From a virus, in the IMG/VR virus record IMGVR_UViG_3300020433_000002, positions 20,506 through 84,505 of that record: a stretch of DNA of 64,000 nt; one strand, written 5' to 3'. Both the position numbers and the translations under genes were made by a program. Below the pieces are notes generated by a model. That model was not told where the DNA came from, made no database searches, and saw only the letters and a list, made by a program, of their open reading frames with translations. Of this stretch, positions 1 to 64,000 are shown one piece after another; position 1 is the first letter of the stretch, and each line of letters opens with the position of its first letter.

Positions 1-2
1 AT

Positions 3-3000
3 AATTGTTATAATGTTGCTATTGGATATCATGCTGGTTGTAAGATAGGAAATAGTTCTTCTCAGGGTGATGATAACGTTTTCTTAGGTAGAGAAGCAGG
101 TGTAAACGTTGATGCAGGTATAGCTAATATCCACATAGGTTACTTTGCAGGATGTCAGAATCAAAGTGGCCATAATAATGTGGCAGTTGGTAAGCAATCA
201 CTTAGATCACTCGCAACAGGCAATAATAACGTAGCACTTGGTAATCAGGCAGGATGTCTGTCTCAGGCTCAAGGCAATACCTTCTTGGGATCTTATGCTG
301 GTAGAAATTTAGTCTCTGGATGTTGTAATATTGTTATTGGTTGTGGAGCTCAAGTTCCACTTCCAAATGAAGATAAGCAATTAGCAATTGGTATTGCTGA
401 TAATAATTGGATCTACGGTAATGCTAACTGGAATGTTGGTATTGGAACAAATGATCCAGATGCTCCTGTTGGTGCTGGAGTTACTGCTAAGTTATCGGTT
501 GGTATTGTATCTGCCTTTGCTTACTATGGTGATGGTTCTAATTTAACTGGTCTTGTTGCTAGTGGACAAGGTATTCAAATTAGAGATAATGATTCTTTGA
601 TTGGTACTGCTGGAACAATAAACTTTTCTACAAACTTATCTGTCTCTGCTATTTCTGGTGCTGCTGTTACTATAACCAGTCAAGGATTATGGACTGCAGA
701 CGTACAAGAAAATTTATTTGCAGGAACTTGTGCAGGATATAATAGAGACGCAGATACCTGTTTCAATATTGGTATAGGTCAAAGTGCAGGTTACGCATTA
801 AATGAAGGTGATGAGAATATCTTTATAGGTAGATGTTCAGGTACAAAAGCAACCGCAGCTAGCAATAATGTTTTCTTAGGATCACTCACTGGTGAATGGG
901 GTTTCATTGGTGAAGATAACGTTTATGCAGGAACTGCTGCTGGTAGATGTAAACAGGGTGGTAGTGAAAACGTTGCACTAGGCCCATTTGCATTACTAGG
1001 TTCTTCAATACCAGGTCAGAACCAAGGTAATAGTAATATTGCTATTGGAATGAGAGCAGGTGCACTAGCACAAAATGGTAGTTGTAATGTTTTGATAGGT
1101 AGAGATGCAGGTATCTGCATAGCCAATGGAAATGAGAACGTTGCAATCGGCCGTTCAGCAATGGGTAGTCAGGCTATTTCCAGTGATCATAATATTGCAA
1201 TTGGTTGTTTGGCTGGTATTAACATTACTAGCGGTAATAATAATATATTCTTGGGAAGACAGTCGGGTGGTCAAAATTCTGGTGGACTTACTCTTACTGG
1301 TTCTTATAACGTAGCACTTGGTCGTGAAGCAGGATGTAACTTACAAGGTAGTACTGATGGTAACGTTTTTGTAGGAGGTTATGCAGGTAAGGTAAACAGC
1401 ACTGGTGATTTTAATATTGCACTTGGTTATAATGCGGGAAGTAATCATAGTACGGGTAATAAAAATATATCAATTGGATGTAACGTACATGTACCTCAGG
1501 ATGCAGATACACAATTAGCAATTGGTATGGGTGCCACTCATTGGCTTACTGGTGATAATCAATTTAACTTAACTCTTGCTGGACTTTCAACTGCAAAAAC
1601 TGATGGAACATTCCAAACTAACCAATTAATGGTAGGTGGTAACGTTGCTTCTGGTATTGCTACCTTTACTGGTTTATCGAATGTTCTGACTATTAATTCT
1701 ACATCATCAAATCCTGCAGCATTATTCCAACAGAGTGGTACTACCAAAGGAAGTATAGAAGCAAGATCTGATGGTATTAGATTACAAACCTCAGCTGATA
1801 ACAGAACAATTATTGCAGCTAATACTAGTGGTGGTACTGCTGGTCTTGTAGAAGTTGAAACTTGGATAAATGGTTCAGGTAATTTAGTTAATAGTTTTGA
1901 AGTTACTGGTTTTGGTACTGTTACTGCTAAACATCAAGATAATGTAAGACTTAGAACTACTCTAGAGGGTATTGAACTTGCTGGTATAGTTACAGGTATT
2001 TCAACTATTAATTCAGGAATCGTAACTTACTATGGTGATGGTTCAAAACTACAAGGTGTTGCAGGTGGTCTTAATGTTCAGGATGAAGGTACTCCATTAG
2101 CAACACAAGCAACCACTCTTAACTTTGAAGGTGCTGGTGTTGTTGCATCTGGTACTGGTGCAACTAAAACTATTACTATTTCTGGTGGTGGTGGAACTGC
2201 TGCTTGGTCTCCTGATGATGATCAAAACTTATATGCTGGTACTAGAGCTGGTAGATGTTTAGATGGTACTAATGCTTGCTACAACGTCATGCTTGGTTGC
2301 AATGCTGGTCAAGCAACTGATTCTGGTGCTGAGAATATATTTGTAGGTAGGGGTGCAGGTTTTGGTAACGAAGGTGGTGATTATAATATTTTCCTAGGCT
2401 CTTATGCAGGTAAATGCAATACTACTGGCTATGGTAACGTATTGTTTGGTAAAGAAGTTGGATTCTGTTTAACTACAGGTATTCATAACTTCTATGCACT
2501 AGAAAGAGCAGGTAGTAACGCTTATCAAGGTTGCGATAACATTGCAATAGGTAGGTGTGCTGGTTATGAAATGATGGCCAATGATAACATTCTCTTAGGC
2601 CGAAATGCTGGTAGAGGACAAGTCTTTGGTAGTCGAAACGTTATCATCGGTATGGATGCTGGTAGATGTGGTGACGCTGGTGATAATAATGTAATGATTG
2701 GTTGCAATGCAGGTCGTTGTAACCAAGGAACAGGTAACGTATTCTTAGGCCATAATACTGGTTCTGCTGTTACTAGTGCTAGTGGTAACGTTGTTATTGG
2801 TTGCAATGTATCACTTGCATCTTCTGTTCAGGATCATCAACTAGCAATTGGTGTTGGTAATACAAACTGGATCACTGGTATTGAGAACTACAACCTCGGT
2901 ATCGGAAGTGATAGACCAAGAACTGCTCTTGATGTTGCTGGAACGGTAGCAACAAGAACGTTCTTCCAGAATGAAGTTGAATTGCGTACTAGTGAAACCT

Positions 3001-3119
3001 TCCCTAAAGAAGGTGGCCCAGTAAATGGAGGTGTATTTGGCCCATACACTATCGGAACTGGTGCTTGTCTTACTATTGGGCCTGGGTCTACATTTACTAT
3101 CATTGGAATACCTGAATAA
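3..3119 (+). CDS. Tail fibre-like protein with Cys/Gly-rich ~14-aa repeats (5'-truncated)
   Basis: Frame is open from position 3 (NCYNVAIGYHAG...), so the real start lies before the window. Dozens of N-x-x-(L/I)G-x-x-AG repeats; GIGT and YYGDGS motifs typical of cyanophage fibres. Confidence 0.75.
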   Translation, partial: NCYNVAIGYHAGCKIGNSSSQGDDNVFLGREAGVNVDAGIANIHIGYFAGCQNQSGHNNVAVGKQSLRSLATGNNNVALGNQAGCLSQAQGNTFLGSYAGRNLVSGCCNIVIGCGAQVPLPNEDKQLAIGIADNNWIYGNANWNVGIGTNDPDAPVGAGVTAKLSVGIVSAFAYYGDGSNLTGLVASGQGIQIRDNDSLIGTAGTINFSTNLSVSAISGAAVTITSQGLWTADVQENLFAGTCAGYNRDADTCFNIGIGQSAGYALNEGDENIFIGRCSGTKATAASNNVFLGSLTGEWGFIGEDNVYAGTAAGRCKQGGSENVALGPFALLGSSIPGQNQGNSNIAIGMRAGALAQNGSCNVLIGRDAGICIANGNENVAIGRSAMGSQAISSDHNIAIGCLAGINITSGNNNIFLGRQSGGQNSGGLTLTGSYNVALGREAGCNLQGSTDGNVFVGGYAGKVNSTGDFNIALGYNAGSNHSTGNKNISIGCNVHVPQDADTQLAIGMGATHWLTGDNQFNLTLAGLSTAKTDGTFQTNQLMVGGNVASGIATFTGLSNVLTINSTSSNPAALFQQSGTTKGSIEARSDGIRLQTSADNRTIIAANTSGGTAGLVEVETWINGSGNLVNSFEVTGFGTVTAKHQDNVRLRTTLEGIELAGIVTGISTINSGIVTYYGDGSKLQGVAGGLNVQDEGTPLATQATTLNFEGAGVVASGTGATKTITISGGGGTAAWSPDDDQNLYAGTRAGRCLDGTNACYNVMLGCNAGQATDSGAENIFVGRGAGFGNEGGDYNIFLGSYAGKCNTTGYGNVLFGKEVGFCLTTGIHNFYALERAGSNAYQGCDNIAIGRCAGYEMMANDNILLGRNAGRGQVFGSRNVIIGMDAGRCGDAGDNNVMIGCNAGRCNQGTGNVFLGHNTGSAVTSASGNVVIGCNVSLASSVQDHQLAIGVGNTNWITGIENYNLGIGSDRPRTALDVAGTVATRTFFQNEVELRTSETFPKEGGPVNGGVFGPYTIGTGACLTIGPGSTFTIIGIPE

Positions 3120-3143
3120 ATAATAAAACAATTGAAATAGATT

Positions 3144-3683
3144 ATGAGTACTTTAGTTCTTAAGGGAGACATCTCTGGGTTCACAAAATTGCAGGCCCAA
3201 GATCAAGCATCATGTAAGATATTGAAATTACCTAATACAGGTAGCTTTAAATGGGAAAGTTACGCAATAGTATTGGATAAAAAAAATTCTGGTACTACTA
3301 GTGGTACTTTCACTAGAGGTTCTTGGGAAACAAGAGATTTGATTACAAAGACAGATATAGATAATATTATATCTCTCTCTAATAATCAATTTACATTAGG
3401 TGCAGGTAGATATTTAATTAAATGGTCAGCACCTGTATATAATGTAGATGGTCATCAAACTAGATTAAGAAACATGAGTGACCTGACTACAGACATTATT
3501 GGTTCTTCAGAATCTGATAACTCAAGATCTTTTGGTGCTGGTGTTGTAACTATTCTTGAAAATAAAACTTTTGAGATACAACACAGATCAGAAACTACTG
3601 TAACTGATAATGGATTTGGTTTTAATTTAGATTTTGGTGAGGATAATATTTTCACCGTGGTTGAAGTATATAAAGAGTCGTGA
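3144..3683 (+). CDS. Hypothetical fibre-associated protein
   Basis: 179-aa beta-rich ORF between structural genes. Confidence 0.55.
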   Translation: MSTLVLKGDISGFTKLQAQDQASCKILKLPNTGSFKWESYAIVLDKKNSGTTSGTFTRGSWETRDLITKTDIDNIISLSNNQFTLGAGRYLIKWSAPVYNVDGHQTRLRNMSDLTTDIIGSSESDNSRSFGAGVVTILENKTFEIQHRSETTVTDNGFGFNLDFGEDNIFTVVEVYKES

Positions 3684-3741
3684 ATGATGCAGTTTCTAAA
3701 ACCAATAAATAGTAAAAACTGGTTAAATCTAACCACTATTG

Positions 3742-4174: not shown

Positions 4175-4180
4175 TCCATC

Positions 4181-12414: not shown

Positions 12415-14115
12415 ATGAATGTTGTTGGACTTTATGGTGCTATAGGTTGGAACGTTGTACTTTCTAACAATCCTAAGTTAGAAAAGGAAGTAAACAATAG
12501 TTGGACACATGGTGCTAGTGTAACCTTATTTAAGGATGATAACCATATATGTAGTGTAAGTGAGGAAAGACTTAGTAGAGTAAAGTATGATGGTAACTTC
12601 CCCAGAAAGTCTATAGAATATTGTTTGTCTGTTGGTAATTTAGACAAGAAAGATATTGATTTGGTAGTCATTCCTTCTATGGCTAACCAAGAGCTTTATA
12701 AGTATTGGATTAATGGTACTCTTACAAAAAAAGTTAAAAGAAATTTTCCAAATGCAAGAGTGCAGGTAGTATCTCATCACATATGTCATGCAGCATCAAC
12801 AGTATTTTCTTGTGATTATAATGAAGGTGCTTTTGTTACATTAGATAATGCAGGATCAGTTTTGTTTGATACTGTAGGACAAATATTTGCCTGTGAAAAT
12901 CATTCATTAGGTTATTTTAATAAGAGAAAAGGTATATTCAAATATTTTCCTGGTGTTCCTCAGATGAATAACTTTGGAAATTATTATTGGTTGTGGGCAT
13001 ATCATATCTACGTTAATAAAATTGATAAAGATATTAAATTAACTGATCCATATTATAGGGAGACATTCTGCGGTAAGGTAATGGGTCTCTCTGCCTATGG
13101 AAATTTAAAAGACCTACCAAAGGATGGTAGAGTTGCTATGGAAGGTATGCCTCAGGTTGCTATGGAATTTCTACCTCAGGCAGGTAAAATGGGCCCATAT
13201 GAAAAACTAACACCAGAAAATAAGGCACAACTCCTTCAACATAATTTTGAACAAGGTATGTTAACGTACTTTAAATTATTAAAAGAAGAAACATATATTC
13301 AAGATAATCTTTGTCTTGCAGGTGGTGTCTTTCTAAACATCCTTGCTAACTCTGTGCTTCATAAGAATAATATTGCAGATAATATACACATACCACCATT
13401 CCCTGATGATACTGGACTCTCATTTGGAGCAGCATGTTATGGAATATTTAAAAATAAAGGAAAGGTAAACCTACCTCATAACATATCATTATTAGGTAAG
13501 TTTTATACTGATGAAGAGATTGAACAAGCACTTGGAGATACCAAGTATAAGAAGTATGATAACTTTGATGAATTATGTGAGGTAGTATCAGGATATCTTG
13601 CAGACAATAAAATTGTAGGATGGTTTCAGAACAGATCTGAATTTGGGCCTAGAGCACTTGGTTCAAGGTCTATCCTTATGAACCCACAACCAAAGAAGAA
13701 CAAGGACATTGTAAACTCACGCATCAAGCATCGTGAAGAGTGGAGACCCTTTGCAGGTATTATGTTAGAGGATCATCAAGAAGAGTACTTTGAAGATACA
13801 TATCCTAATGATTATATGCTATACTCTTTGACTGTACGGAAACATAAGAGAAAAAATCTTGGTGCTATTACTCATGAGGATGGTTCTTGTAGAATACAGA
13901 CAGTGAATAAGAAACTACATCCACAAGTCACTATTCTTCTAGAAAAATATAAAGAAGAAACAGGGTGTCCTATTCTTCTAAATACATCTTTCAATGATAA
14001 TGGCCAACCAATTGTTGAGACTCCAGAACATGCTGTTGATACTTTTAACAATATTGACTTGGATTACTTATGTATCGGTAACTACATTATAAATAAAAAT
14101 TTCAAGGATACATGA
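12415..14115 (+). CDS. Carbamoyltransferase (NodU/CmcH family)
   Basis: EERLSRVK, HHICHA, GKVMGLSAYG, LAGGVFLN, EFGPRALGSRS, RPFA and LLNTSFN motifs. Confidence 0.92.
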   Translation: MNVVGLYGAIGWNVVLSNNPKLEKEVNNSWTHGASVTLFKDDNHICSVSEERLSRVKYDGNFPRKSIEYCLSVGNLDKKDIDLVVIPSMANQELYKYWINGTLTKKVKRNFPNARVQVVSHHICHAASTVFSCDYNEGAFVTLDNAGSVLFDTVGQIFACENHSLGYFNKRKGIFKYFPGVPQMNNFGNYYWLWAYHIYVNKIDKDIKLTDPYYRETFCGKVMGLSAYGNLKDLPKDGRVAMEGMPQVAMEFLPQAGKMGPYEKLTPENKAQLLQHNFEQGMLTYFKLLKEETYIQDNLCLAGGVFLNILANSVLHKNNIADNIHIPPFPDDTGLSFGAACYGIFKNKGKVNLPHNISLLGKFYTDEEIEQALGDTKYKKYDNFDELCEVVSGYLADNKIVGWFQNRSEFGPRALGSRSILMNPQPKKNKDIVNSRIKHREEWRPFAGIMLEDHQEEYFEDTYPNDYMLYSLTVRKHKRKNLGAITHEDGSCRIQTVNKKLHPQVTILLEKYKEETGCPILLNTSFNDNGQPIVETPEHAVDTFNNIDLDYLCIGNYIINKNFKDT

Positions 14116-15654: not shown

Positions 15655-15821
15655 ATTGTTGGCACTGTAATACTGAACTTATATGGGGATCAGATTTTGA
15701 TGCTGAAGACTATGGATGTGAAGAAGAGTACTCTATTGTAACTAACCTTACATGTCCTAAGTGTGAGTCATTTGTACAAGTATATTATCCTAATGAAGAT
15801 CAAAGACAAGTTTCTAGATAA
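15651..15821 (+). CDS. Small Zn-ribbon-like protein (56 aa, not in ORF track)
   Basis: MNCWHC...LTCPKC with two CxxC pairs; ATGA overlap. Confidence 0.7.
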   Translation: MNCWHCNTELIWGSDFDAEDYGCEEEYSIVTNLTCPKCESFVQVYYPNEDQRQVSR

Positions 15822-47155: not shown

Positions 47156-48332
47156 ACTTCTCAAAGTATATTCCTAGTTGAGCCCATAGAGCATCAGGAT
47201 ATAAGTTATTATATTTGTTAGGGTATTTCTTATAATTCTTCCATAAAGATTCATCCACATCAAACTTACTATAATACTTCCAGAAAGGTGTATCATCTCT
47301 ATCACTTAGCATATAATGATGTAATAAGTAATCTGAATTTTGTTTTTGTACCTTTAACATTGTTTTGTTATATGCCTCTGGTTTTGATCCTTTCAATATA
47401 CATTTAACTAATAAAGTAATACTATAAACCACCATATATAATCCATTTGCTTCCAATGGATCAACAAATCCTTGACCTAATCCTATAGTAACCACGTTAT
47501 CTTTCCATGGCCTTTTTAATACATTAGGTTTCCATTTAATATTTCTTGGTTGTATATTATTATATCGTTTTCTATTCTTAGTCCACCCTTTAAAATCATC
47601 AAGAGCTTCATCATCAGAGATATACTTATCAGAATAAACATAACCTGATCCAGTACGATTTTGTAGATCAATTATAAACTGCCATCCACATTCTCTTGCT
47701 ACTGTTTGTGTATATGGATTGATCTCTCCCTTTAATTCAAATGGACATACCCATGCACTATTAACTAAATGGTGATCCCATATCTCTTCAGTTCTATCAG
47801 TCGTAAATTTTCTAGCAAAACCACTAGCATCAACGTAGAGGTCATATCCTTTAGGTAATTCATCTAATGTATCAATAATATGAGTTACGTCTTTACAATA
47901 GTCTTTAACAACAGAATTGGCTAGGTTTGCATCTAAATGATATGCAACCGATCTCCACCCATCTTTATCATATAATTCTATGTGACTATTTTTATCTTTA
48001 ACACCAGACTTATATTCTTGATACCATTTATCAAAACGACCTTTAGGATCATCCTGCCAAAACGTCATGAGAAATGGATCCTTACCAACACCATCCCACT
48101 CATATTTCATGTTCCCATACTTATGGACAGCATTACATCCATTCATCCACTCTTTCTCTGGAATACCTAGTTCTTCAAAGAAGGCTCCTATTTGTGGAAG
48201 AGAAGATTCCCCAACACCACTTGTAGGTATCTCATCACTTTCGATTAATGTTATCTCAGCATCAAGAAATCTCTGCATATATGATGCACACCACCAACCA
48301 GAAGTTCCACCACCTATAATACAAATTTTCAT
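47136..48332 (-). CDS. Flavin-dependent (tryptophan-halogenase-like) enzyme, short form
   Basis: IIGGGTSGW, GVGES..P, putative catalytic Lys (HKYG), DASGF, GWQFII, GFVDPLEANG. Confidence 0.82.
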   Translation of the reverse strand: MKICIIGGGTSGWWCASYMQRFLDAEITLIESDEIPTSGVGESSLPQIGAFFEELGIPEKEWMNGCNAVHKYGNMKYEWDGVGKDPFLMTFWQDDPKGRFDKWYQEYKSGVKDKNSHIELYDKDGWRSVAYHLDANLANSVVKDYCKDVTHIIDTLDELPKGYDLYVDASGFARKFTTDRTEEIWDHHLVNSAWVCPFELKGEINPYTQTVARECGWQFIIDLQNRTGSGYVYSDKYISDDEALDDFKGWTKNRKRYNNIQPRNIKWKPNVLKRPWKDNVVTIGLGQGFVDPLEANGLYMVVYSITLLVKCILKGSKPEAYNKTMLKVQKQNSDYLLHHYMLSDRDDTPFWKYYSKFDVDESLWKNYKKYPNKYNNLYPDALWAQLGIYFEKFKHYTP

Positions 48333-52292: not shown

Positions 52293-52439
52293 ATGAACGA
52301 CCTTGATTTTTCTCGCATTGCTAATGCTCTTGAAAGAATTGCAAATGCTTTAGAACATATCAACATTGAGAATATAGAGCATAATCATGTTGAGACTGAT
52401 GTACCAGTAGAAGTAAATACTCATGCTAAAACTTGGTAA
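52293..52439 (+). CDS. Small protein with RIANALE heptad repeat (48 aa)
   Basis: MNDLDFSRIANALERIANALEH...; TAATG overlap with the next gene. Confidence 0.6.
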   Translation: MNDLDFSRIANALERIANALEHINIENIEHNHVETDVPVEVNTHAKTW

Positions 52440-52939
52440 TGAATATTTTTGTAACCGACCCTGATCCCATATTATCTGCACAGGTGCTACCTGATAAGCA
52501 TATCGTCAAGATGCCTTTAGAAACTTGTCAAATGCTTTCTATTGTTGCATCTAAAGAGTGGGGTCATGACTTTGGTAAGTTACCAAAGAAAGGTGGTGGT
52601 TTCTACAAAACAGAGAAAGGTGCATTTCGTAATCATCCCTGTACTATATGGGCTCAGACCTATTACAGTTGGTTGATTACACATGGTCTTGCTCTATGTT
52701 CAGAGTACACATACAGATATGAAAAGATTCATACTTGTGAATATACTATACAATATGCTGATGACTTATTCCCTGAGAGTCCACCACCCACAGAATTTGT
52801 ACGTGCCATGTTTGATGAGTTTAAGTATGATGAGTCTATTGATACTATTACTGCCTATAAAAGATATATCAATGCTAAGCCATGGGTTAAGGACAACTAT
52901 CTTAGAAAACCTGAGAGAAAACCTGATTGGATAACATGA
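52439..52939 (+). CDS. Pyrimidine-dimer DNA glycosylase family (DenV-like)
   Basis: MNIF, DKHIVKMPLE.CQML, NHPC.IW, LC.EY..RY.K.H. Confidence 0.78.
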   Translation: MNIFVTDPDPILSAQVLPDKHIVKMPLETCQMLSIVASKEWGHDFGKLPKKGGGFYKTEKGAFRNHPCTIWAQTYYSWLITHGLALCSEYTYRYEKIHTCEYTIQYADDLFPESPPPTEFVRAMFDEFKYDESIDTITAYKRYINAKPWVKDNYLRKPERKPDWIT

Positions 52940-53781
52940 GAGATTTAATATTGTTTGGAGACTGTAGAGATACACTCACACAATTTGATGAGAAGGCAAG
53001 ATGTTGTGTTACATCCCCACCTTACTATGGACTCAGGAACTATGGTGATGAGGAGAATCAGATCGGACATGAACAAACACCAGAGGAATATGTTGATGAA
53101 ATGGTCAAGGTATTCAGATTGGTTCGAGAGTGTCTAACTGATGATGGTACTGTATGGTTAAACATAGGGGATAGTTATTATAACTATAGACCTGGTAAAG
53201 GTCAAGCACTTTCTAAACAAACACTAGCAAAGAATGATCAAGACCTACCTAGTAAATGTGCAAGGAGAGGTAATAAACTAGATGGATTGAAAGAGAAGGA
53301 TATGATTGGTATTCCTTGGCTTCTTGCGTTTGCCCTGAGGGCTGATGGTTGGTACTTAAGACAAGATATTATCTGGAATAAACCTAATCCAATGCCAGAA
53401 AGTGTGAGAGATAGATGTACTAAATCACATGAATACATATTCTTATTAAGTAAGAATCAGAACTATTACTTTGATGTAGATGCTATCAAAGAACCTACAA
53501 GAAGGAAGAGATCAGTATGGGATATAACTAAGAAACCATACAAAGATGCCCATTTTGCTGTATTTCCACCTGATTTGATTGAACCCTGTATCAAGGCTGG
53601 TAGTGAGAGAGGAGATATAATACTAGATCCATTTATGGGATCAGGAACTACTGCTATGGTATCCAAAGAGTTAGGAAGAGATTACATAGGTTGCGAATTA
53701 CATGAAGAGTATGGTAAACTAATACAAGATAGACTACAACCATACCATAATCCCTTAGAGAAGTTTTATGAAAAAAGTTGA
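52936..53781 (+). CDS. DNA methyltransferase, beta class (SPPY, probably N4-cytosine)
   Basis: TSPPYY precedes HFAVFP and LDPFMGSGTT. Confidence 0.9.
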   Translation: MRDLILFGDCRDTLTQFDEKARCCVTSPPYYGLRNYGDEENQIGHEQTPEEYVDEMVKVFRLVRECLTDDGTVWLNIGDSYYNYRPGKGQALSKQTLAKNDQDLPSKCARRGNKLDGLKEKDMIGIPWLLAFALRADGWYLRQDIIWNKPNPMPESVRDRCTKSHEYIFLLSKNQNYYFDVDAIKEPTRRKRSVWDITKKPYKDAHFAVFPPDLIEPCIKAGSERGDIILDPFMGSGTTAMVSKELGRDYIGCELHEEYGKLIQDRLQPYHNPLEKFYEKS

Positions 53782-54250
53782 GAGACATAAGTATGATGGC
53801 GATACAATCATAGCCACTAGAACACTTGAGTTCGACCCATATCCTTATGAGTACATACAGGATGTAATGAAAAAGATTGAGTGTTACCTTACACCTGAGT
53901 TATTATCACACAAGAAATTGAAATATCCAGAGGATGTTATCAAATACAGATTTTATGGACATTGTTATCATTCATCACAGGCACTATTCTTCATGATGGA
54001 CACAGATAAGTTGAAACCTTATAGTGGAGTTGATTGGAGAGAAGAAAAGCATTGGTGGTTACAGGATGGAGATACAATATATGATGTAACTGTTGACCAG
54101 TATAAGTGTAGAAACAAAGTACCACCCTATGATGTTGGTAAAGAGAGTAAATGGTACGGATGGAAACAACGACCACAACAACTAACACTCGATCTCATGA
54201 CCAAAGTATTAGGTAAGAGATTGGCTCTTGACGATACTGTTAAACTATGA
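53768..54250 (+). CDS. Hypothetical protein
   Basis: GHCY..S and HWWL....IYD.T..Q suggest a Cys-His-Asp triad. Confidence 0.6.
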   Translation: MKKVERHKYDGDTIIATRTLEFDPYPYEYIQDVMKKIECYLTPELLSHKKLKYPEDVIKYRFYGHCYHSSQALFFMMDTDKLKPYSGVDWREEKHWWLQDGDTIYDVTVDQYKCRNKVPPYDVGKESKWYGWKQRPQQLTLDLMTKVLGKRLALDDTVKL

Positions 54251-55221
54251 TATCCTATGGAGGTACAAAAGAATCGTATATGAAACCTATTGATATGACG
54301 AAAGGAAACCATAGAGTTCCCTTTGATGTATTAGGGTTCGATCCATTTTCTCAGGAACCATCTTCATTCCTTATGGAGATCACACCTGATATGGCTGCGT
54401 ACATTCTAAAACACCATAACAACGATAACAGAAAACTTATTAAATCACAAGTTAATAAGATCGTATCGAGCATAATCAAGGATGATTGGATCTTTGATGG
54501 TCAACCAATTACTTTCAATGTTGAGGGTAACTTGACCGAAGGACAACACAGACTTCATGCTATTGTTATTACAGGAGTAACTGCTAAATGCAATATTGCT
54601 CTTGGTGTAGTCACAGGTGCATTTACAAAATGTACCCCAGCTAAACCACGTAAAGCAGAAGATGAAATTCAGAGGAAGGACAAAACTGCTACTGCGAGTG
54701 AAACAAGTACCTTGCGTCAAGTCCTAATACGTAGGAGAGGTGATAAACTAACAATCCAAAATGCTATCGAAAAATGGGTATTTTGGAAACCATTTGTTAG
54801 AACTGGTAGAAAGTCAATAGATACTTTCTTTGACGAAGTTGAGAAATTCAATGCTTGGGAAAGAACATTTGGTGCGTGGGCCACACTCATGGCCACTCTC
54901 AAAAAGGAGGAGGTTGTATCTAACTTCCTATCCTTACTAGAATCAGAGATCAAGGATGATACTTCACCTTGCTGTTTGACTAGAGAATTTATACAATTCT
55001 TTGAGAAAGAGTCTGTTTACATGAGTAATGCAGGGAGAACTGAATTAGTTTACCAGTTACTATGTGTGGCGAGTGATAGAATGATGAAGGAGCCATCTGG
55101 AAACATACAATTAAATGTTTCTATGGATAAGATGAACCACGATATGTTAAGTAAGAGAGGAACCTATCGCAAGTTCCTTGATAATCCTGATAATATAATA
55201 CTAGCAGGGAAGCTTCCATAA
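54247..55221 (+). CDS. ParB/DGQHR-like domain protein
   Basis: NR.L, W.FDGQPI.F, L.EGQHRL.A. Confidence 0.65.
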   Translation: MISYGGTKESYMKPIDMTKGNHRVPFDVLGFDPFSQEPSSFLMEITPDMAAYILKHHNNDNRKLIKSQVNKIVSSIIKDDWIFDGQPITFNVEGNLTEGQHRLHAIVITGVTAKCNIALGVVTGAFTKCTPAKPRKAEDEIQRKDKTATASETSTLRQVLIRRRGDKLTIQNAIEKWVFWKPFVRTGRKSIDTFFDEVEKFNAWERTFGAWATLMATLKKEEVVSNFLSLLESEIKDDTSPCCLTREFIQFFEKESVYMSNAGRTELVYQLLCVASDRMMKEPSGNIQLNVSMDKMNHDMLSKRGTYRKFLDNPDNIILAGKLP

Positions 55222-56808: not shown

Positions 56809-57024
56809 ATGATCAATTTAGACGAAAGATACCACGATTACCTTATAAATGGTAAATTAGTAAGGGTTGATGGGATCAGCGAAAAATTGATCGGATATGG
56901 TTGGCATTGTGATGGAAACGAAATAAAAGGGTACTATCTTACTACAGAAAATCATAAATTATATTATAATATGGATCAAGTCTTTCAGTATAGGACACCA
57001 CTCAAGGAGAAATTAAATGTCTAA
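56809..57024 (+). CDS. Hypothetical protein
   Basis: TATAAT upstream; coupled to the CP12 gene. Confidence 0.6.
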   Translation: MINLDERYHDYLINGKLVRVDGISEKLIGYGWHCDGNEIKGYYLTTENHKLYYNMDQVFQYRTPLKEKLNV

Positions 57025-57283
57025 AATCAAACACGATTTAAGTCACGAATCTTACATTGACCCAGAGGACAACAAAGAGCATATTAATCATGGTATGTTA
57101 GAATATTCAGTAGAGGAACTAGAAAATGTTCATGCCGATTACGAAGACTATCACAAAAATGATGTCGTTGATCCTAATGATGGTAAGATTAATGACTGGC
57201 ACACAAGACATGAGGATAAGCATTTAGAAATATATTGCGACAACCATCCTGACGCATTTGAATGTAGAGTATATGACGATTGA
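57017..57283 (+). CDS. cp12: CP12-domain protein (Calvin cycle inhibitor-like)
   Basis: C-terminal LEIYCDNHPDAFECRVYDD matches the CP12 C-terminal C-x8-C-R-x-Y-D-D motif. Confidence 0.85.
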   Translation: MSKIKHDLSHESYIDPEDNKEHINHGMLEYSVEELENVHADYEDYHKNDVVDPNDGKINDWHTRHEDKHLEIYCDNHPDAFECRVYDD

Positions 57284-57299: not shown

Positions 57300-58823
57300 A
57301 TGGAAAATGTAAGGAACATCACTATAGTTGGTGGTGGTACGGCTGGTTGGATGACTGCTACATGGTTAGTCAGAAGAGCAGCCGCTTTTCATCATTCTCA
57401 TGTAACTTTAATTGATAAGGAAGTACCTGAGAGAATAGGAGTAGGAGAAGCAAATCTTTTAAACTTCAATAAGTTTATGCAATATTGTGGTTTTAATGAT
57501 CCTACTGAGTGGATGGAGGAAGTGGATGCTACTTATAAGGGTGGTATCATATATCCTAATTGGGGTAAAGATGGTAAGACAATCTATCATCCATTTGGTC
57601 AGTTTCACTTTAGTACTACTGCACCTGATGGAACAGAATTTACAATACCATTTGGTGATGTTTTACAAACAAATACTGATATAGATTATCCGTCATCATT
57701 AACTTTCTTTCCGTCTTTAATTAAGAATAAAGTAGAGATAGATGATCTAGCAGGGTATTCTGAGCAATTAGATTGTGGTAAGTATGTTGAGTTCTTGATA
57801 AGACATATTAAGGGGTCAGATGGATTTACATACATTAATTCTACTGTTGAAAATATAAATTGGGATGGAGATAGTATAGCATCACTAGACTTGGCTGATG
57901 GTACTAACAATAAAGCAGATATATTCATTGACTGTACTGGATTTAAGAGACTGTTATCAGATAAAAGAGAGATCATTGATTATAGTGATAGATTATTTGT
58001 AAATACTGCTGTTGCTACTAGAGTACAGTATGTTGATAGAGAGAAGGAGTTACATCCATACACTACTGCTACTGCTACTGATCATGGATGGATATGGGAA
58101 ACACCATTAACTACTAGAATAGGATCAGGGTTAATATTTAATAGAAATATTACTGATATTGAGGATGCTAAGGAATATTTTGTTAAGCATTGGGATGATA
58201 GAATTAAGAAGGAAGATGTAAGAGCCATAAATTGGGATCCTAATAGAATTAAAGAGTTTTGGAAGGGTAATGTAATAAACATAGGTTTATCTGGTGGATT
58301 CATTGAACCACTAGAAAGTACAGGAATTGGATTTATTATTAATGGAATAGAACTACTAGAAGATTGTTTGATAGGTGGGTGTTATGATTACATGGACATG
58401 AACCAATATAATTTAAAGATGGTAAATGACTATGAAAGTGCTGTTGATTTTATTAGTATGCACTATGACTTCTCACATATTCAGAGTCCATTTTGGGATT
58501 ATGTAAGAAAGACTTTTAAGAAATCTGGATTCCAGAAAATGATGGAGAGTTCTATTAGAAACCCTGATTATCCAACATATAAAGTATTGAGACATGGATT
58601 TTTTGGTGGTCATAACTGGTCAATCTGGTTACATCAATTAATGGATGATGTTCCAAGTAAGACATACTTTGATAATAGAAAATGGCGAGGAGAATTAGTT
58701 GCAAGACTACATGATATGAAAAGGAGAGCAAGTAAAGCCTTACCACACCTTGAAGCACTAGAATATAAACCAACACTTGAGGAGAGAATGGTAGGTACTA
58801 AACCAAGATGGATGGACATTTAA
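57300..58823 (+). CDS. Flavin-dependent halogenase (PrnA-like)
   Basis: IVGGGTAGW, IGVGEA, ATYKGGI (catalytic Lys position), IDCTGF, GWIWETP, GFIEPLESTG. Confidence 0.9.
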   Translation: MENVRNITIVGGGTAGWMTATWLVRRAAAFHHSHVTLIDKEVPERIGVGEANLLNFNKFMQYCGFNDPTEWMEEVDATYKGGIIYPNWGKDGKTIYHPFGQFHFSTTAPDGTEFTIPFGDVLQTNTDIDYPSSLTFFPSLIKNKVEIDDLAGYSEQLDCGKYVEFLIRHIKGSDGFTYINSTVENINWDGDSIASLDLADGTNNKADIFIDCTGFKRLLSDKREIIDYSDRLFVNTAVATRVQYVDREKELHPYTTATATDHGWIWETPLTTRIGSGLIFNRNITDIEDAKEYFVKHWDDRIKKEDVRAINWDPNRIKEFWKGNVINIGLSGGFIEPLESTGIGFIINGIELLEDCLIGGCYDYMDMNQYNLKMVNDYESAVDFISMHYDFSHIQSPFWDYVRKTFKKSGFQKMMESSIRNPDYPTYKVLRHGFFGGHNWSIWLHQLMDDVPSKTYFDNRKWRGELVARLHDMKRRASKALPHLEALEYKPTLEERMVGTKPRWMDI

Positions 58824-58862: not shown

Positions 58863-59834
58863 ATGATCGAGATAAAGCAACAGCCTGCTGAGAAAATAAA
58901 GGATATAGAGCAAGATTTTGATTTAGTTTACATGGATCCACCTTTCGGATTACAACGTGACTTCACTATGGTCGAGAAGGATGGAGAGAAGAAGGGATTT
59001 TCTGATAAATGGGATTCATTTGATGATTATATTATATGGTATGCTAATATTGTACACTCAGCATGGTATAAGTTAAAAAAGAACGGATGGATGTATTTAC
59101 ATAATAATTTTATTGGTAATGCTCTATTATTATCTAAAGTAATACCTGAGATACGTGATAGTTTCTATACAAATATATCATGGAAGAGATCAGGGCCGAA
59201 GAATAATATAAAGAATGGATGGGGTAATATTGTAGATTCTATCATGGTTCTTAAGAAAGGCAACCCATATTTTGAGGTTGAATATGGATCACTAGATCCA
59301 GTATATGAAGCAAATAGTTTCAAGAATAAGGATGAAGTTGGTTACTATGCACTAGCAAAAGTTACAGGAGAGAAGAGTAGGCCGTGTGCTAAGTATGAGT
59401 ATAAAGGTTATAATCCTGAGTATGGATTTAGAATAGCACAAGAGAAACTCAAAGCACTTGATGATCAGAACTTACTACATTATGGTAAGAATATGTTATA
59501 CAAAAAGATATACTCTCATGAGTCTAAGGGAGTTCCAGTTCAGAATTTCTGGGATGATGTGTATTTTATATCGAGGAGTGAGAAGAACAAGAGAAAGTAT
59601 CCTACTCAAAAACCAATAAAATTATTAGAGAGAATAATCAAATCAAGTTGCCCTGAGAAGGGATGGGTATTGGATCCTTTTTGTGGATCAGGAACAACTG
59701 CTATTGCATCATTCAATCTAAATAGAAATTGTATCACAACTGACGTGAATCCTGACGCAATTAAGATGACTGATGTGGCACTAAAAGAACTGGCACAAGA
59801 GAAGTTGAATCCTTTAGTTGACGTGTTATATTAA
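58863..59834 (+). CDS. DNA methyltransferase, beta class (DPPF, probably N6-adenine)
   Basis: YMDPPF, YPTQKP..LLERII, LDPFCGSGTT. Confidence 0.9.
   Translation: MIEIKQQPAEKIKDIEQDFDLVYMDPPFGLQRDFTMVEKDGEKKGFSDKWDSFDDYIIWYANIVHSAWYKLKKNGWMYLHNNFIGNALLLSKVIPEIRDSFYTNISWKRSGPKNNIKNGWGNIVDSIMVLKKGNPYFEVEYGSLDPVYEANSFKNKDEVGYYALAKVTGEKSRPCAKYEYKGYNPEYGFRIAQEKLKALDDQNLLHYGKNMLYKKIYSHESKGVPVQNFWDDVYFISRSEKNKRKYPTQKPIKLLERIIKSSCPEKGWVLDPFCGSGTTAIASFNLNRNCITTDVNPDAIKMTDVALKELAQEKLNPLVDVLY
59777..59832 (+). promoter_or_regulatory. Promoter cassette copy C (inside the MTase 3' end)
   Basis: GGCACTaaaagAACTGGCACA-N29-TATATT. Confidence 0.55.
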
Positions 59835-59936: not shown

Positions 59937-60392
59937 ATGTCAACCAGATCAAGAATCGGAATTTTACAAGATGACTTATCAGTTAAGTCTGTTTATCATC
60001 ATTGGGATGGATACCCTGAGTGGTTAGGAGTAACTCTTGAGCAACAGTACAATACAAGAGAGAAAGTTGCTGAGTTGATTGATGGTGGTAATATGAGTTC
60101 ATGTTGGTCAGATAATAAATTTGATGTTGAAACAAAAGAGTTCATTAAAATTGATGACCCAAAACCTAGTTACTATGGTGGGGATGATGAGAGGCCACAT
60201 CACAATAAATCAATCGAGGACTTTCTACAGGATGCAAATATGTCTGAAGAGTTTCTTTATCTCTTTACCAATAATGAGTTTGGTTGGAGTGCATGGTCAG
60301 TAACACCTAAGTATGATAAAGAATGGAATGTTCTTGATACTGATACTACCAGAGTTGAGATCCCTGCATGGGATGTAGCAGACGATAGTTAA
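59937..60392 (+). CDS. Conserved phage hypothetical protein
   Basis: MSTRSRIG...VYHHWDGYP.WLG; GGAG RBS. Confidence 0.75.
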   Translation: MSTRSRIGILQDDLSVKSVYHHWDGYPEWLGVTLEQQYNTREKVAELIDGGNMSSCWSDNKFDVETKEFIKIDDPKPSYYGGDDERPHHNKSIEDFLQDANMSEEFLYLFTNNEFGWSAWSVTPKYDKEWNVLDTDTTRVEIPAWDVADDS

Positions 60393-61319: not shown

Positions 61320-61323
61320 TATT

Positions 61324-62073: not shown

Positions 62074-62129
62074 GACACTTTAATTAGTGTCACATCATCC
62101 CTACCATTTCACTTGGTAGGGGTTATAAT
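62074..62129 (+). promoter_or_regulatory. Promoter cassette copy F
   Basis: GACACTttaattAGTGTCACA dyad, CCCTACCA/TGGTAGGG hairpin, TATAAT at 62124. Confidence 0.7.
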
Positions 62130-62152
62130 TAATATATCTACAGAGTTATTAC

Positions 62153-63058: not shown

Positions 63059-63258
63059 TGACTAACAACATACAAGAAAGTGTAGAATTAATGGGTGAAT
63101 ACTACGTTGAGAGATTCAAGACCCTATTAGAGGGAGAAATGTTGAATTTACAGATAAAAAGACATAGGGATGCACAAAGTATTATGAGTGAATACCTATG
63201 TGGTGGAGTAGAGGATGATGACTACCAATGGTTATACTTACAAAAGATAGAGGCTTAA
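63058..63258 (+). CDS. Hypothetical protein
   Basis: TAATG-coupled. Confidence 0.55.
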   Translation: MTNNIQESVELMGEYYVERFKTLLEGEMLNLQIKRHRDAQSIMSEYLCGGVEDDDYQWLYLQKIEA

Positions 63259-63432
63259 ACTAATGGGTAAATTAAAAGAGAGAGAAGCCAAGTTGTATAA
63301 ATGTTGTTGTGACCTTATGGAAGAGGACAATAACAACATATATGATATAATGGATGTAATCTTTAACAATCTAACCATATCACAATTAGATGAGATTGAA
63401 GATACACTTGTAAAATTTTACGGATTAATCAA

Positions 63433-63723
63433 ATGACTAAACTAACTCAGCAACAACGTGATGACCTTATCACTCAGTATATTGAAATTGTAGTAGATAG
63501 TATGAGTGTAGATGAACTTGTGAATTTAGGTATGAATAAATTACAGGAAGAGTTCAATTCTTATGACTTAGATGAACTAAAGAGTAAGATAGGTCAGTAT
63601 GACCCTGAGTTGTTTGATGAGTTAGTTGATAATGTACTGTATATTGATTCAAAACGCAAGCCCTTTGAACCAGTTGAAGAAGTGGCCACTGTACACAGAC
63701 GTACGGACTTAGATCGTTTATAA
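63433..63723 (+). CDS. Small acidic hypothetical protein
   Basis: LTQQQRDDLITQYIEIVVDSMSVDEL; 3' end runs into cassette G. Confidence 0.6.
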   Translation: MTKLTQQQRDDLITQYIEIVVDSMSVDELVNLGMNKLQEEFNSYDLDELKSKIGQYDPELFDELVDNVLYIDSKRKPFEPVEEVATVHRRTDLDRL

Positions 63724-63724
63724 T
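63669..63724 (+). promoter_or_regulatory. Promoter cassette copy G
   Basis: ACCAGTTgaagAAGTGGCCAC-N29-TATAAT-aagtacat. Confidence 0.65.
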
Positions 63725-63749
63725 AAGTACATACACAAAGAGGTCATTC

Positions 63750-64000
63750 ATGAACGGATTAGGCAAATCAAACACCGAACTTAACGATATGCTCACTAAC
63801 TTTGTTGAGTATGTAGATTCATTCTATGGTCAGAATGATCCACTCTATCCTATGATGTCTCAAGAGACTAAACAACCTCTTACAAAGTATGATATTTACA
63901 GGGCAACACAAAACTATCTTGCCATGTGTAGTGATGAGAATGAAAAACTTTGCACATGGGGTGATGGTGACTCTCTTGATAGAGAAAGAGTAAGAGACAT
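63750..64000 (+). CDS. Hypothetical protein (3'-truncated)
   Basis: GAGG RBS; MNGLGKSN...FVEYVDSFYG..DPLYP...WGDGDSLDRERVRD, open to the window end. Confidence 0.6.
   Translation, partial: MNGLGKSNTELNDMLTNFVEYVDSFYGQNDPLYPMMSQETKQPLTKYDIYRATQNYLAMCSDENEKLCTWGDGDSLDRERVRD

What the first reader, a model, noticed from the sequence alone, without database searches (positions are those of the whole stretch)
1..64000. Apparent avoidance of GGWCC, visible as forced Gly-Pro codon choice
Seen: Gly is mostly GGT/GGA here, yet each of about 30 Gly-Pro pairs I checked uses GGC-CCN or GGG-CCN (e.g. 981, 3015, 6664, 13644, 22321, 27376, 39261, 59193). I found no GGTCC or GGACC by eye, although tens would be expected in 64 kb. 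GGCC is common; CCGG and GCGC also look scarce but were not counted. Inference: strong selection against an AvaII-type GGWCC nuclease, either host restriction or a phage nuclease that degrades host DNA and spares its own. Tolerance of GGCC may reflect protection by a methyltransferase such as the SPPY enzyme at 52936.
Basis: partly seen in the sequence, partly recalled or inferred. Interest (0 to 1): 0.72.

Follow-up and report, generated by a model that had tools for sequence, protein, structure and literature searches.

The report
GGWCC restriction-site purge in a cyanophage
This uncultured ocean virus of cyanobacteria has silently recoded its genes so that no GGWCC site is left, a clean but classic sign of escape from a DNA-cutting enzyme, and the enzyme responsible is still not pinned down.

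Summary
The window holds 0 GGTCC, 0 GGACC, 0 CCGG, 0 GCGC and 86 GGCC. The whole 84.5-kb contig gives the same zeros. Synonymous codon shuffles expect 38.5±3.4 GGWCC in the window. All 32 Gly-Pro pairs in the window use the rare GGC or GGG codon, although 91% of Gly codons are GGT/GGA.

The contig is a T4-like cyanomyovirus (CP12, phoH, thyX, gp32, baseplate genes). A 152-kb relative that differs at 9.2% of bases has 1 GGWCC against 58 expected. No site was gained between the two genomes, against about 34 expected, so selection is still acting.

Nine other cyanomyoviruses do the reverse: 595 of 596 Gly-Pro pairs use GGT/GGA, and GGCC is depleted. Gly-Pro must create either GGWCC or GGCC, and this lineage chose GGCC.

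The SPPY methyltransferase does not explain the GGCC tolerance, because its orthologues sit in phages that deplete GGCC.

The most likely agent is a host AvaII/SinI-type restriction enzyme. Support is thin: one SinI-type system in 401 host-family genomes. No phage-borne SinI-like nuclease was found.

This scan has already noted the same purge on other cyanophage DNA. It is a new member of a known kind.

The parts
1..64000 (.). Window-wide absence of GGWCC (also of CCGG and GCGC), with a GGCC excess
   Evidence: Exact counts are. Codon shuffle gives GGWCC 0 against 38.5+/-3.4, CCGG 0 against 38.6, GCGC 0 against 19.1 and GGCC 82 against 27.4 in window CDS. The 32 Gly-Pro pairs, all GGC/GGG-CCN, start at 981, 3015, 3039, 3078, 6664, 7465, 7936, 9403, 10471, 10724, 13192, 13645, 22321, 24078(-), 27376, 28936, 29865, 31005, 32648, 32969, 33005, 33772, 34565, 38976, 39261, 39912, 40230, 41292, 43078, 44071, 48790(-) and 59193.
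981..986 (+). Example Gly-Pro pair recoded as GGC-CCA
13645..13650 (+).
59193..59198 (+). Example Gly-Pro pair GGG-CCG, inside the second methyltransferase gene
52927..53781 (+). Methyltransferase 1: PF01555, motif TSPPYYGL, probably N4-cytosine type. It is the orthologue of the gene annotated 'dam' or 'cytosine methyltransferase' in cultured cyanomyoviruses.
   Evidence: Pfam E = 1.6e-55. Translation. It is 65.5% identical to the P-SSM2 gene and 74.4% to the S-SSM5 gene, and similar to those of P-HM1, P-SSM4 and others. Those phages deplete GGCC, so it is not a good candidate for a GGCC protector.
58863..59834 (+). Methyltransferase 2: PF01555, motif MDPPFGL, probably N6-adenine type. It is specific to this lineage.
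   Evidence: Pfam E = 1.6e-36. Translation. The best phage match is under 30% identity, in Streptomyces phages. Only weak SAM-motif matches were found in 5 cultured cyanomyoviruses. It is present in the 152-kb relative G403, where the region aligns at 85%. GGCC holds no adenine, so an N6-adenine enzyme could not protect it; this last step is inference from the motif.
57017..57283 (+). CP12 auxiliary metabolic gene, a marker that the host is a cyanobacterium
   Evidence: Pfam PF02672, E = 3.1e-08. Translation.

Best explanation
The window is part of an uncultured T4-like cyanomyovirus. Its lineage is under continuing selection to carry no GGWCC, the recognition site of AvaII/SinI-type Type II restriction endonucleases.

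Each GGWCC that arises exposes the unmodified incoming genome to a double-strand cut, so such variants are lost. Because Gly-Pro is always GGN-CCN, the only way to keep the dipeptide without the site is to use the rare codons GGC or GGG, and that creates GGCC instead. The lineage therefore trades GGWCC for GGCC. Most other cyanomyoviruses make the opposite trade.

Shown here:
- the total absence of the site;
- removal by synonymous choices in all three reading frames;
- conservation of the purge across relatives;
- no site gained during 9% sequence divergence.

Inferred:
- that the agent is a site-specific endonuclease;
- that it is encoded by the hosts, marine picocyanobacteria, probably strain-variable R-M cassettes such as the SinI-type one found in one Prochlorococcus-like genome.

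CCGG, GCGC, ATCGAT and, in part, AGCT, TGWCA and others are purged in parallel, presumably by other enzymes.
For: (1) The purge is real and codon-aware. GGWCC is 0 against 48.6+/-3.6 in the contig and 0 against 38.5+/-3.4 in the window. All 41 of 41 Gly-Pro pairs use GGC/GGG although 91% of Gly codons are GGT/GGA. In the other two frames 0 sites are seen against 10.2 expected.

(2) The trait belongs to the lineage. Five IMG/VR relatives (75-92% aa identity, 73.9 kb) have 0 against 27 expected. Ten loci with a 90-99% identical methyltransferase 1 all have 0. The 152-kb contig G403 has 1 against 58.

(3) Selection is ongoing. G000 and G403 align over 75,473 columns with 6,947 mismatches. There are 2,405 one-step opportunities to create GGWCC and 0 gains. 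The median gain rate over all 5-mers is 0.0143 per opportunity, which gives about 34 expected.

(4) The effect is not a general codon-pair or translation effect. Nine other cyanomyoviruses with the same codon bias use GGT/GGA in 595 of 596 Gly-Pro pairs. They carry GGWCC at 0.6-1.5 of expectation and deplete GGCC to 0.2-0.5.

(5) The host is a cyanobacterium: CP12 is present, with phoH, thyX and T4-type core genes. All similar phage records are Prochlorococcus or Synechococcus phages or marine viruses.

(6) A cognate system exists on the host side. One of 401 genomes of the family holding Prochlorococcus SS51 (G066, 1.4 Mb) carries an RE_SinI-family REase of 211 aa (138 bits) next to a C5 cytosine methyltransferase, beside guaA. 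The cassette has 30.8% GC against 39.9% in the 20-kb stretch around it. The flanks are 75% identical in nucleotides to Prochlorococcus MIT 1012. That genome is itself depleted in GGWCC (38 against 81), while three Prochlorococcus genomes without the system are not (52/53, 56/52, 55/53).

(7) C5 methyltransferases, the usual partners of GGWCC-, CCGG-, GCGC-, GGCC- and AGCT-type systems (that pairing is recalled), occur in 45 of 401 of these genomes. Some have REase-like neighbours, namely EcoO109I-like, BglI-like and IceA-like proteins.
Against: - The cognate REase family is rare where it should matter. RE_SinI was found in 1 of 401 family genomes and 0 of 285 genomes of the genus of Prochlorococcus SS51. 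Only 14 relatives of the G066 enzyme were found in the 5.8-billion-protein collection, by a word-limited search. The phage lineage, by contrast, is common: its methyltransferase is seen on many contigs.
- The REase families for two other words depleted in these phages were not found at all. RE_HpaII (CCGG) was 0 of 401 and RE_HaeIII (GGCC) was 0 of 401. So either the agents belong to families I did not test, or they are not host REases.
- The host of this lineage is unknown.
- The genomes searched are one per species and are often incomplete, and R-M cassettes vary between strains, so rarity there is weak evidence either way.
- 5 of 5 Nostoc/Anabaena genomes also lacked RE_SinI. The only positive control for that search is G066 itself.
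Confidence: 0.6

Rival explanations
1. The selecting nuclease is phage-borne. Either this lineage carries a GGWCC-specific nuclease that shreds host DNA (which has about 52-56 sites per 100 kb) and spares its own site-free genome, or co-infecting rival phages carry such a nuclease and the purge is a product of conflict between phages.
For: - Host genomes keep GGWCC, CCGG and GCGC at near-expected frequency, so they would be good substrates.
- Host REases matching the depleted words are rare or undetected: RE_SinI 1/401, RE_HpaII 0/401, RE_HaeIII 0/401.
- Earlier unchecked notes of this scan describe a mini AvaII/SinI-type nuclease cassette in a marine T4-like phage, and a cyanophage purged of its own nuclease's site. 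These are leads only.
- This contig is 41% complete and G403 is 73% complete by CheckV, so a gene could lie in the missing part.
Against: - No RE_SinI match was found in G000, G403 or four other cyanophage contigs.
- There was no hit better than E = 1.6 in a local six-frame hmmsearch of 1.71 Mb of cyanophage DNA with a SinI-family profile, while the positive control scored 288 bits.
- tblastn of the G066 enzyme against 50,697 phage records hit no cyanophage, and the scan of IMG/VR found no relative.
- About 53 window ORFs were scanned against Pfam and/or PHROGs. The only nuclease-type hits were core T4-type genes: a PD-(D/E)XK exonuclease, a gp4/TnsA-like protein and denV-like proteins.
Confidence: 0.15
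2. GGCC is tolerated because a phage methyltransferase (the SPPY enzyme, or the second one) methylates GGCC. On this view the lineage can afford GGCC while others cannot.
For: - Methyltransferase 1 has an SPPY motif, typical of N4-cytosine enzymes (motif seen; the rule is recalled).
- An m4C GGCC methyltransferase is known in Synechocystis (M.Ssp6803II; recalled, not checked here).
- Methyltransferase 1 of this lineage lacks an insertion of about 30 aa that most orthologues have (alignment spans), so its specificity could differ.
- GGCC is enriched about two-fold even outside Gly-Pro pairs.
Against: - Orthologues at 64-74% identity occur in P-SSM2, S-SSM5, P-HM1, P-SSM4, P-TIM68, P-RSM4 and AG-345-L05. 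All of these deplete GGCC: 4/10, 9/36, 6/20, 6/14, 3/16, 10/19 and 12/23.
- S-SSM5 has the colinear short form of the enzyme and still depletes GGCC.
- Methyltransferase 2 has a DPPF motif, which points to an N6-adenine enzyme (rule recalled), and GGCC has no adenine.
- No specificity could be derived from solved relatives.
Confidence: 0.1
3. There is no selection by a nuclease. The pattern would then come from mutation bias (for example deamination at methylated sites), from codon-pair or translational preference at Gly-Pro, or from an assembly or library artefact.
For: Gly-Pro dipeptides are about half as frequent as composition predicts (41 against 87), so something acts on this pair in general. 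The same holds for most of the other cyanomyoviruses examined and for Pro-Gly.
Against: - The change that removes the site is W to S at the third position of the Gly codon, not the C to T that deamination would give.
- The purge also holds in the two other reading frames, 0 against 10.2.
- Relatives with the same codon usage choose the opposite codons in 595 of 596 pairs.
- Contigs from several independent metagenomes agree.
- No site was gained against about 34 expected over 9% divergence.
Confidence: 0.02

Closest known systems
Restriction-site (short palindrome) avoidance in virulent dsDNA phages. Survey: Rusinov et al. 2018, PMC6286503. Earlier work by Sharp 1986 and Rocha et al. 2001 is recalled and was not read here.
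   Same: A Type II recognition palindrome is missing far beyond chance, it is removed without changing the proteins, and several sites are purged at once.
   Different: Completeness: 0 of about 49 expected. There is a visible forced codon choice at every Gly-Pro pair. The choice between GGWCC and GGCC is a mirror image between sister lineages. A term search of the Rusinov paper found no occurrence of cyanophage, Prochlorococcus, Synechococcus, GGWCC or codon. I saw only that search result and the title.
AvaII / SinI-type Type IIP R-M systems (G^GWCC; Pfam RE_SinI PF09570 with an m5C methyltransferase)
   Same: The purged word is exactly their site. One such cassette (REase plus C5 methyltransferase) lies in a Prochlorococcus-like genome that is itself depleted in GGWCC.
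   Different: The phage carries no such enzyme. The link between this phage lineage and hosts bearing the cassette is not shown. The family is rare in the genomes searched: 1/401 and 0/285.
GATC-free Staphylococcus phage K and similar single-site purges
   Same: Total loss of one host restriction site across a large lytic phage genome.
   Different: There the host enzyme (Sau3AI) is known and common. Here the host enzymes are rare or unidentified, and at least four words are at zero.
T4 host-DNA degradation, with self/non-self set by hydroxymethylcytosine (recalled)
   Same: It offers a logic by which a phage nuclease could cut host DNA but not phage DNA. This is the model behind the rival explanation.
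   Different: No modified-base pathway and no candidate nuclease were found here. Discrimination would have to rest on site absence, which is not shown.
The same purge in other marine T4-like phage windows of this scan (notes e1-5327483, e1-6070791, e1-5782392, e1-5337794)
   Same: GGWCC is purged through rare Gly codons before Pro. In e1-5327483 CCGG, GCGC and ATCGAT are also at zero.
   Different: These are other genomes, and the notes are unchecked. Added here: the GGWCC/GGCC mirror, the gain-rate test, the host-side SinI cassette, and negative searches for HpaII- and HaeIII-type enzymes.

Membership tests
Restriction-site avoidance in lytic phages | Site count far below expectation under both composition-aware and codon-aware nulls | tested here: met
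   GGWCC is 0 against 25.8 (Markov, window), 0 against 38.5+/-3.4 (codon shuffle, window) and 0 against 48.6+/-3.6 (contig). It is the most depleted 5-mer.
Restriction-site avoidance in lytic phages | Removal by synonymous choices, with proteins unchanged | tested here: met
   41 of 41 Gly-Pro pairs use GGC/GGG. Sites in the other two frames are avoided through the codons for Thr, Ser, Asp and Val, 0 against 10.2 expected.
Restriction-site avoidance in lytic phages | Avoidance is shared by relatives and maintained by selection | tested here: met
   Relatives show 0/27 and 1/58. There were 0 gains against about 34 expected over 6,947 substitutions.
Restriction-site avoidance in lytic phages | A cognate restriction enzyme is present in the host(s) | tested here: inconclusive
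   RE_SinI plus C5 methyltransferase was found in 1 of 401 genomes of the host family and 0 of 285 of one Prochlorococcus genus. The actual host of this lineage is unknown.
AvaII/SinI-type R-M as the agent | The enzyme cleaves GGWCC, and phage DNA with sites is restricted | not testable with these tools
   Indirect evidence only: the genome with the cassette is depleted in GGWCC (38/81), and three genomes without it are not.
Phage-encoded self-sparing nuclease | A nuclease gene of the matching specificity is present in the phage genome | tested here: not met
   No RE_SinI match in G000 (41% complete), G403 (73% complete) or four other contigs. None in 1.71 Mb by local hmmsearch. Only the SinI family was tested, and the genomes are incomplete.
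Methyltransferase protection of GGCC | Presence of the methyltransferase goes with tolerance of GGCC across phages | tested here: not met
   Seven phages with an orthologue of methyltransferase 1 deplete GGCC to 0.2-0.5 of expectation.
Methyltransferase protection of GGCC | The enzyme methylates GGCC | not testable with these tools
   Solved relatives give no specificity. A methylome is needed.

The most novel reading that the evidence does not exclude
Marine cyanomyoviruses have no hypermodified bases. They might tell self from host by what their DNA lacks. On this reading the zero-count words (GGWCC here, CCGG and GCGC in many Prochlorococcus phages) are targets of phage-borne, possibly mobile, site-specific nucleases. 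These would degrade host or rival-phage DNA, and each lineage's set of purged words would record the nucleases circulating in its co-infection network rather than host R-M systems. This would explain why matching host enzymes are so rare (1/401, 0/401 and 0/401).
Probability: 0.12. Interest if true: 0.75.

Novelty: new member of a known kind. Interest (0 to 1): 0.35.

Why it matters
As restriction-site avoidance the finding is ordinary. Three points give it some value.

First, it is an unusually clean natural experiment. Gly-Pro forces a choice between GGWCC and GGCC, and sister lineages of cyanomyoviruses make opposite choices. Purged-word sets can therefore serve as heritable markers of which nucleases a lineage meets, and they can trace mosaic regions.

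Second, the purge is under measurable present-day selection in one of the ocean's abundant phage groups. Yet matching restriction enzymes are rare or undetected in Prochlorococcus-family genomes. This sharpens an open question: what imposes such strong restriction pressure on phages of a host thought to be poor in defences?

Third, it gives a concrete host-side candidate to test, the SinI-type cassette beside guaA in G066.

Tried and rejected
- **Mutation bias, codon-pair preference and artefact** were rejected (see rivals).
- **SPPY methyltransferase as GGCC protector** was rejected on comparative grounds.
- **Methyltransferase specificity from solved structures:** only generic beta-class relatives were found (CcrM, MboIIA, DpnA, RsrI, PvuII and N4-cytosine enzymes), with no target information.
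- **Candidate nucleases next to the methyltransferases:**
  - ORFs 53768-54250 and 54247-55221 have no Pfam hit, only PHROGs of unknown function, and Atlas neighbours that are viral hypotheticals.
  - ORF 59937-60392 belongs to a family of 2,599 representatives. A profile built from 52 of them (51 chosen from the 150 listed, for length and coverage, plus the query) matched nothing meaningful in PDB sequences or Pfam.
- **A degenerate KGWCM site** as a single explanation for both GGWCC and TGWCA was rejected. GGWCA/TGWCC are at 0.79 of control phages, against 0.01 and 0.21.
- **EcoO109I-like REase in G273** as a GGWCC agent: that genome is not depleted (97/107), so nothing can be said.
- **Literature.** Searches were: 'cyanophage' + 'restriction site avoidance' (0 papers); 'cyanophage' + 'GGWCC' (2 papers, both on dZ DNA); 'Prochlorococcus' + 'restriction-modification' + 'palindrome' + 'avoidance' (4 papers, none on phages judging by title and abstract start); 'cyanophage' + 'AvaII' (5); 'cyanophage' + 'restriction sites' + 'underrepresented' (3); and the four-term search. 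I read passages of PMC12801897 only; it mentions methylases as counter-defence and says nothing on site avoidance. I found no printed report of GGWCC avoidance in marine cyanophages in these searches. Subscription-journal papers, for example older work on Anabaena phages and AvaI/AvaII sites that I recall only vaguely, are not in the library.

Full report
**What the window is.** The 64-kb window is bases 20506-84505 of a single 84,505-bp viral contig, which CheckV rates 41% complete. Pfam and PHROGs give these T4-type genes:
- gp59 loader, gp32 and gp53;
- baseplate and tail-tube proteins, and a gp5-like hub;
- a UvsW-like helicase, a PD-(D/E)XK exonuclease and denV-like genes;
- thyX, phoH and several 2OG-Fe(II) oxygenases;
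- two tryptophan halogenases and the cyanophage auxiliary gene CP12.

The only similar phage records are Prochlorococcus or Synechococcus phages and marine single-cell 'viruses', and they are distant: the hub protein is 33% identical to AG-345-L05, 30% to S-SKS1 and 26% to P-SSM2. It is therefore an uncultured lineage of T4-like cyanomyovirus with 35.6% GC.

**The observation.** Exact counts give GGTCC 0, GGACC 0, CCGG 0, GCGC 0 and GGCC 86 in the window. The whole contig shows the same zeros, with GGCC 118.

Three nulls were used for GGWCC:
- Maximal-order Markov expects 25.8 in the window, and base composition expects 41.3.
- Shuffling synonymous codons among 72 crude ORF genes of the window expects 38.5±3.4, with a minimum of 28 in 300 shuffles.
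- For the contig (87 genes, 93% coding) the shuffle gives 48.6±3.6.

In an unbiased scan of all 4- to 6-mers against the codon-shuffle null, GGWCC is the most depleted 5-mer (z = -12.9) and GGCC is the most enriched 4-mer (114 against 36.9).

Gly codons in the contig are GGT 1389, GGA 741, GGC 100 and GGG 100, yet all 41 Gly-Pro pairs (32 of them in the window) use GGC or GGG. All eight coordinates cited are such pairs, one of them off by one base.

The purge also holds in the two other reading frames. After a codon ending in GG, neither ACC nor TCC is ever used. Between a codon ending in G and one starting with C, neither GAC nor GTC is used. Together this is 0 against 10.2 expected.

**It is a lineage trait under present selection.**
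- Five IMG/VR relatives (75-92% aa identity in the hub protein; 73.9 kb in all) have 0 GGWCC against 27 expected by Markov, 0 CCGG and 0 GCGC, with GGCC 112 against 30.
- Ten further loci whose methyltransferase 1 is 90-99% identical all have 0.
- A colinear 152-kb contig, G403 (73% complete, HSPs at 81-93% nucleotide identity), has 1 GGWCC, at base 163, against 58 expected. It has GGCC 216/75, CCGG 0/54 and GCGC 0/26.

The contig (G000) and G403 align over 75,473 columns with 6,947 mismatches. Counting both directions, 2,405 five-mers are one substitution away from GGWCC, and none became GGWCC. The median conversion rate over all 5-mer classes is 0.0143, which would give about 34 gains. The site is therefore being removed as fast as mutation makes it.

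**The mirror image in other cyanomyoviruses.** I counted the same words in 50-100 kb of AG-345-L05, S-SKS1, P-SSM2, S-SSM5, P-HM1, P-SSM4, P-TIM68 and P-RSM4, and in the 124.9-kb contig G405. Observed/expected counts (maximal-order Markov):

| Phage | GGWCC | GGCC |
|---|---|---|
| AG-345-L05 | 60/56 | 12/23 |
| S-SKS1 | 25/36 | 6/28 |
| P-SSM2 | 211/144 | 4/10 |
| S-SSM5 | 86/69 | 9/36 |
| P-HM1 | 30/48 | 6/20 |
| P-SSM4 | 45/45 | 6/14 |
| P-TIM68 | 39/47 | 3/16 |
| P-RSM4 | 62/60 | 10/19 |
| G405 | 68/75 | 6/22 |

In all nine, GGWCC is near or above expectation and GGCC is depleted. At Gly-Pro pairs they use GGT/GGA in 595 of 596 cases.

Gly-Pro is always GGN-CCN, so it must create either GGWCC or GGSCC, and the latter contains GGCC. 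A phage can avoid only one of the two words unless it gives up the dipeptide. This lineage avoids GGWCC and pays with GGCC; most relatives do the reverse. Of the 114 GGCC in CDS, 41 are such pairs. The remaining 73, against about 33 expected, are a further excess of about two-fold. It is explained only in part, by avoidance of neighbouring words such as TGGCA.

Among the 80 IMG/VR loci around methyltransferase 1, other lineages also lack GGWCC, and a few lack both words.

**The methyltransferases.** Methyltransferase 1 (52927-53781; motif TSPPYYGL) is the orthologue of the gene annotated 'dam' or 'cytosine methyltransferase' in many Prochlorococcus-infecting cyanomyoviruses and a few Synechococcus phages, at 64-74% identity. 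Those phages deplete GGCC, so its presence does not go with GGCC tolerance. S-SSM5 has the same short form of the enzyme and still shows 9 against 36.

Methyltransferase 2 (58863-59834; motif MDPPFGL) is specific to this lineage. It has no orthologue in cultured cyanophages. Its motif suggests an adenine enzyme, which could not act on GGCC. The motif rules are recalled knowledge, not tested here. Solved relatives give no target information.

**Who does the cutting?** I reached host genomes through psbA of P-HM1, which matched Prochlorococcus genomes at up to 100% amino-acid identity.

| Pfam family (site) | Genomes searched | With a match |
|---|---|---|
| RE_SinI PF09570 (GGWCC) | 401, family of Prochlorococcus SS51 | 1 |
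| RE_SinI PF09570 | 285, genus of SS51 | 0 |
| RE_SinI PF09570 | 5 Nostoc/Anabaena | 0 |
| RE_HpaII PF09561 (CCGG) | 401, same family | 0 |
| RE_HaeIII PF09556 (GGCC) | 401, same family | 0 |
| C5 DNA methylase PF00145 | 401, same family | 45 |

The single RE_SinI hit is in G066, a 1.4-Mb assembly. There a 211-aa REase (138 bits) sits next to a 390-aa C5 cytosine methyltransferase, beside guaA. The cassette has 30.8% GC against 39.9% for the 20-kb stretch around it. The flanks are most similar, at 75% nucleotide identity, to Prochlorococcus MIT 1012. G066 is depleted in GGWCC (38 against 81 in 120 kb). SS51, MIT 9302 and MIT 1012 are not (52/53, 56/52, 55/53). That is the usual mark of a resident, active GGWCC system.

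C5 methyltransferases occur in many of the small, Prochlorococcus-sized genomes. Some have REase-like neighbours: EcoO109I-like, BglI-like and IceA-like proteins, and a vsr / methyltransferase / HATPase_c_3 operon. The genome with the EcoO109I-like enzyme (G273) is not depleted in GGWCC, at 97/107.

Host restriction by a SinI/AvaII-type enzyme is thus possible and has one concrete example. Its rarity means the agent is not established.

**The phage-borne alternative.** Earlier notes of this scan (unchecked) describe a mini AvaII/SinI nuclease cassette in a marine T4-like phage, and phages purged of their own nuclease's site. I tested this lead:
- RE_SinI is absent from the contig, from G403 and from four other cyanophage contigs.
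- tblastn of the G066 enzyme against 50,697 phage records hit only a Streptococcus phage and a gut phage contig.
- The IMG/VR scan found no relative.

Only the SinI family was tested and the genomes are incomplete, so I keep this rival at about 0.15.

**Comparison with what is known, and verdict.** This is restriction-site avoidance, a known strategy of lytic phages (survey: PMC6286503). I searched that paper for terms only, and it does not mention cyanophages, GGWCC or codons. My six literature searches found no report of GGWCC avoidance in marine cyanophages. The scan itself has already noted the same purge on other cyanophage DNA.

I file the finding as a new member of a known kind. Its interest is moderate to low. 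Two things raise it slightly: the clean GGWCC/GGCC trade-off, and the unresolved mismatch between very strong selection on the phage and the scarcity of matching host enzymes. Confidence is about 0.6 that the purge is selection against a GGWCC-specific endonuclease encoded by hosts.

Noticed in passing
window 1-64000 and the whole contig; G403: TGWCA (TGACA/TGTCA) is depleted about five-fold in this lineage only. Counts are 22 against 115 by codon shuffle in the contig and 68 against 189 by Markov in G403. Cultured cyanomyoviruses are normal. The depletion does not depend on flanking bases, and among all NGWCN words only GGWCC (0.01) and TGWCA (0.21) are depleted. I recall no restriction enzyme with this site.
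   Followed up: partly
window 1-64000 and the whole contig: Other purged words in the contig, against the codon shuffle: CCGG 0/54, GCGC 0/27, ATCGAT 0/19.6, GTATAC 2/21, GAATTC 7/29, AGCT 101/286, TCGA 72/152 and TGGCA/TGCCA 44/104. TGGCCA is enriched, 28 against 8.5. CCGG is 0 (1 in AG-345-L05) in the cyanomyoviruses sampled that carry an orthologue of methyltransferase 1. It is normal (58/49) in S-SKS1, which was not among the hits.
   Followed up: partly
L194, L197, L198 (IMG/VR loci around methyltransferase 1 orthologues): These contigs lack both GGWCC (0/10, 0/8, 0/9) and GGCC (0/3, 0/4, 0/4). They encode no Gly-Pro dipeptide at all, against 7.5, 6.8 and 7.2 expected. A purge of GGNCC may therefore have reached the protein level.
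   Followed up: partly
G405 (IMG/VR contig of 124,934 bp), bases about 33,190-55,470: A 22.3-kb island has no GGWCC (0/12) and almost no AGCT (2/36), in a genome that otherwise has 67/62 and 103/278. The chance of such a gap is about 4e-4. It looks like a mosaic segment from a lineage with a different purge set.
   Followed up: partly
L117 / L118 (G066:C1:104000-123999): A SinI-family REase (211 aa) plus a C5 methyltransferase (390 aa) is inserted beside guaA in a Prochlorococcus-like genome. The cassette has low GC (30.8% against 39.9%). The host genome is depleted in GGWCC, 38/81.
   Followed up: yes
L234, L235 (G192, G278), and several ORFs of about 690 aa at a similar chromosomal position in other genomes: Small Prochlorococcus-sized genomes carry a vsr / C5 methyltransferase / HATPase_c_3 gene row at about 350-375 kb. 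At least eight others have a C5-methylase ORF of 680-704 aa at a similar coordinate. This looks like a conserved island of defence-type genes.
   Followed up: no
window 59937-60392 (+): A 151-aa ORF lies just after the lineage-specific methyltransferase 2. It belongs to a large family (2,599 representatives at E<=1e-3) with invariant Y20, D24, G31 and L47. It has no Pfam or PDB sequence match.
   Followed up: partly
window 15763-16302 (+) and 52433-52939 (+): There are two denV-like genes. One matches only PHROG 274 (DNA endonuclease V). The other matches Pfam Pyr_excise and overlaps the start of methyltransferase 1.
   Followed up: no
window 47136-48332 (-) and 57300-58823 (+): There are two tryptophan-halogenase genes on opposite strands, with several 2OG-Fe(II) oxygenases and a cytidylyltransferase nearby.
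   Followed up: no
L009 (P-SSM2, bases 1-50000): There are 212 Gly-Pro dipeptides against 97 expected, and 211 of them are coded GGT/GGA-CCN. This makes GGWCC over-represented there, 211/144. The cause is probably repeat-rich fibre proteins.
   Followed up: no
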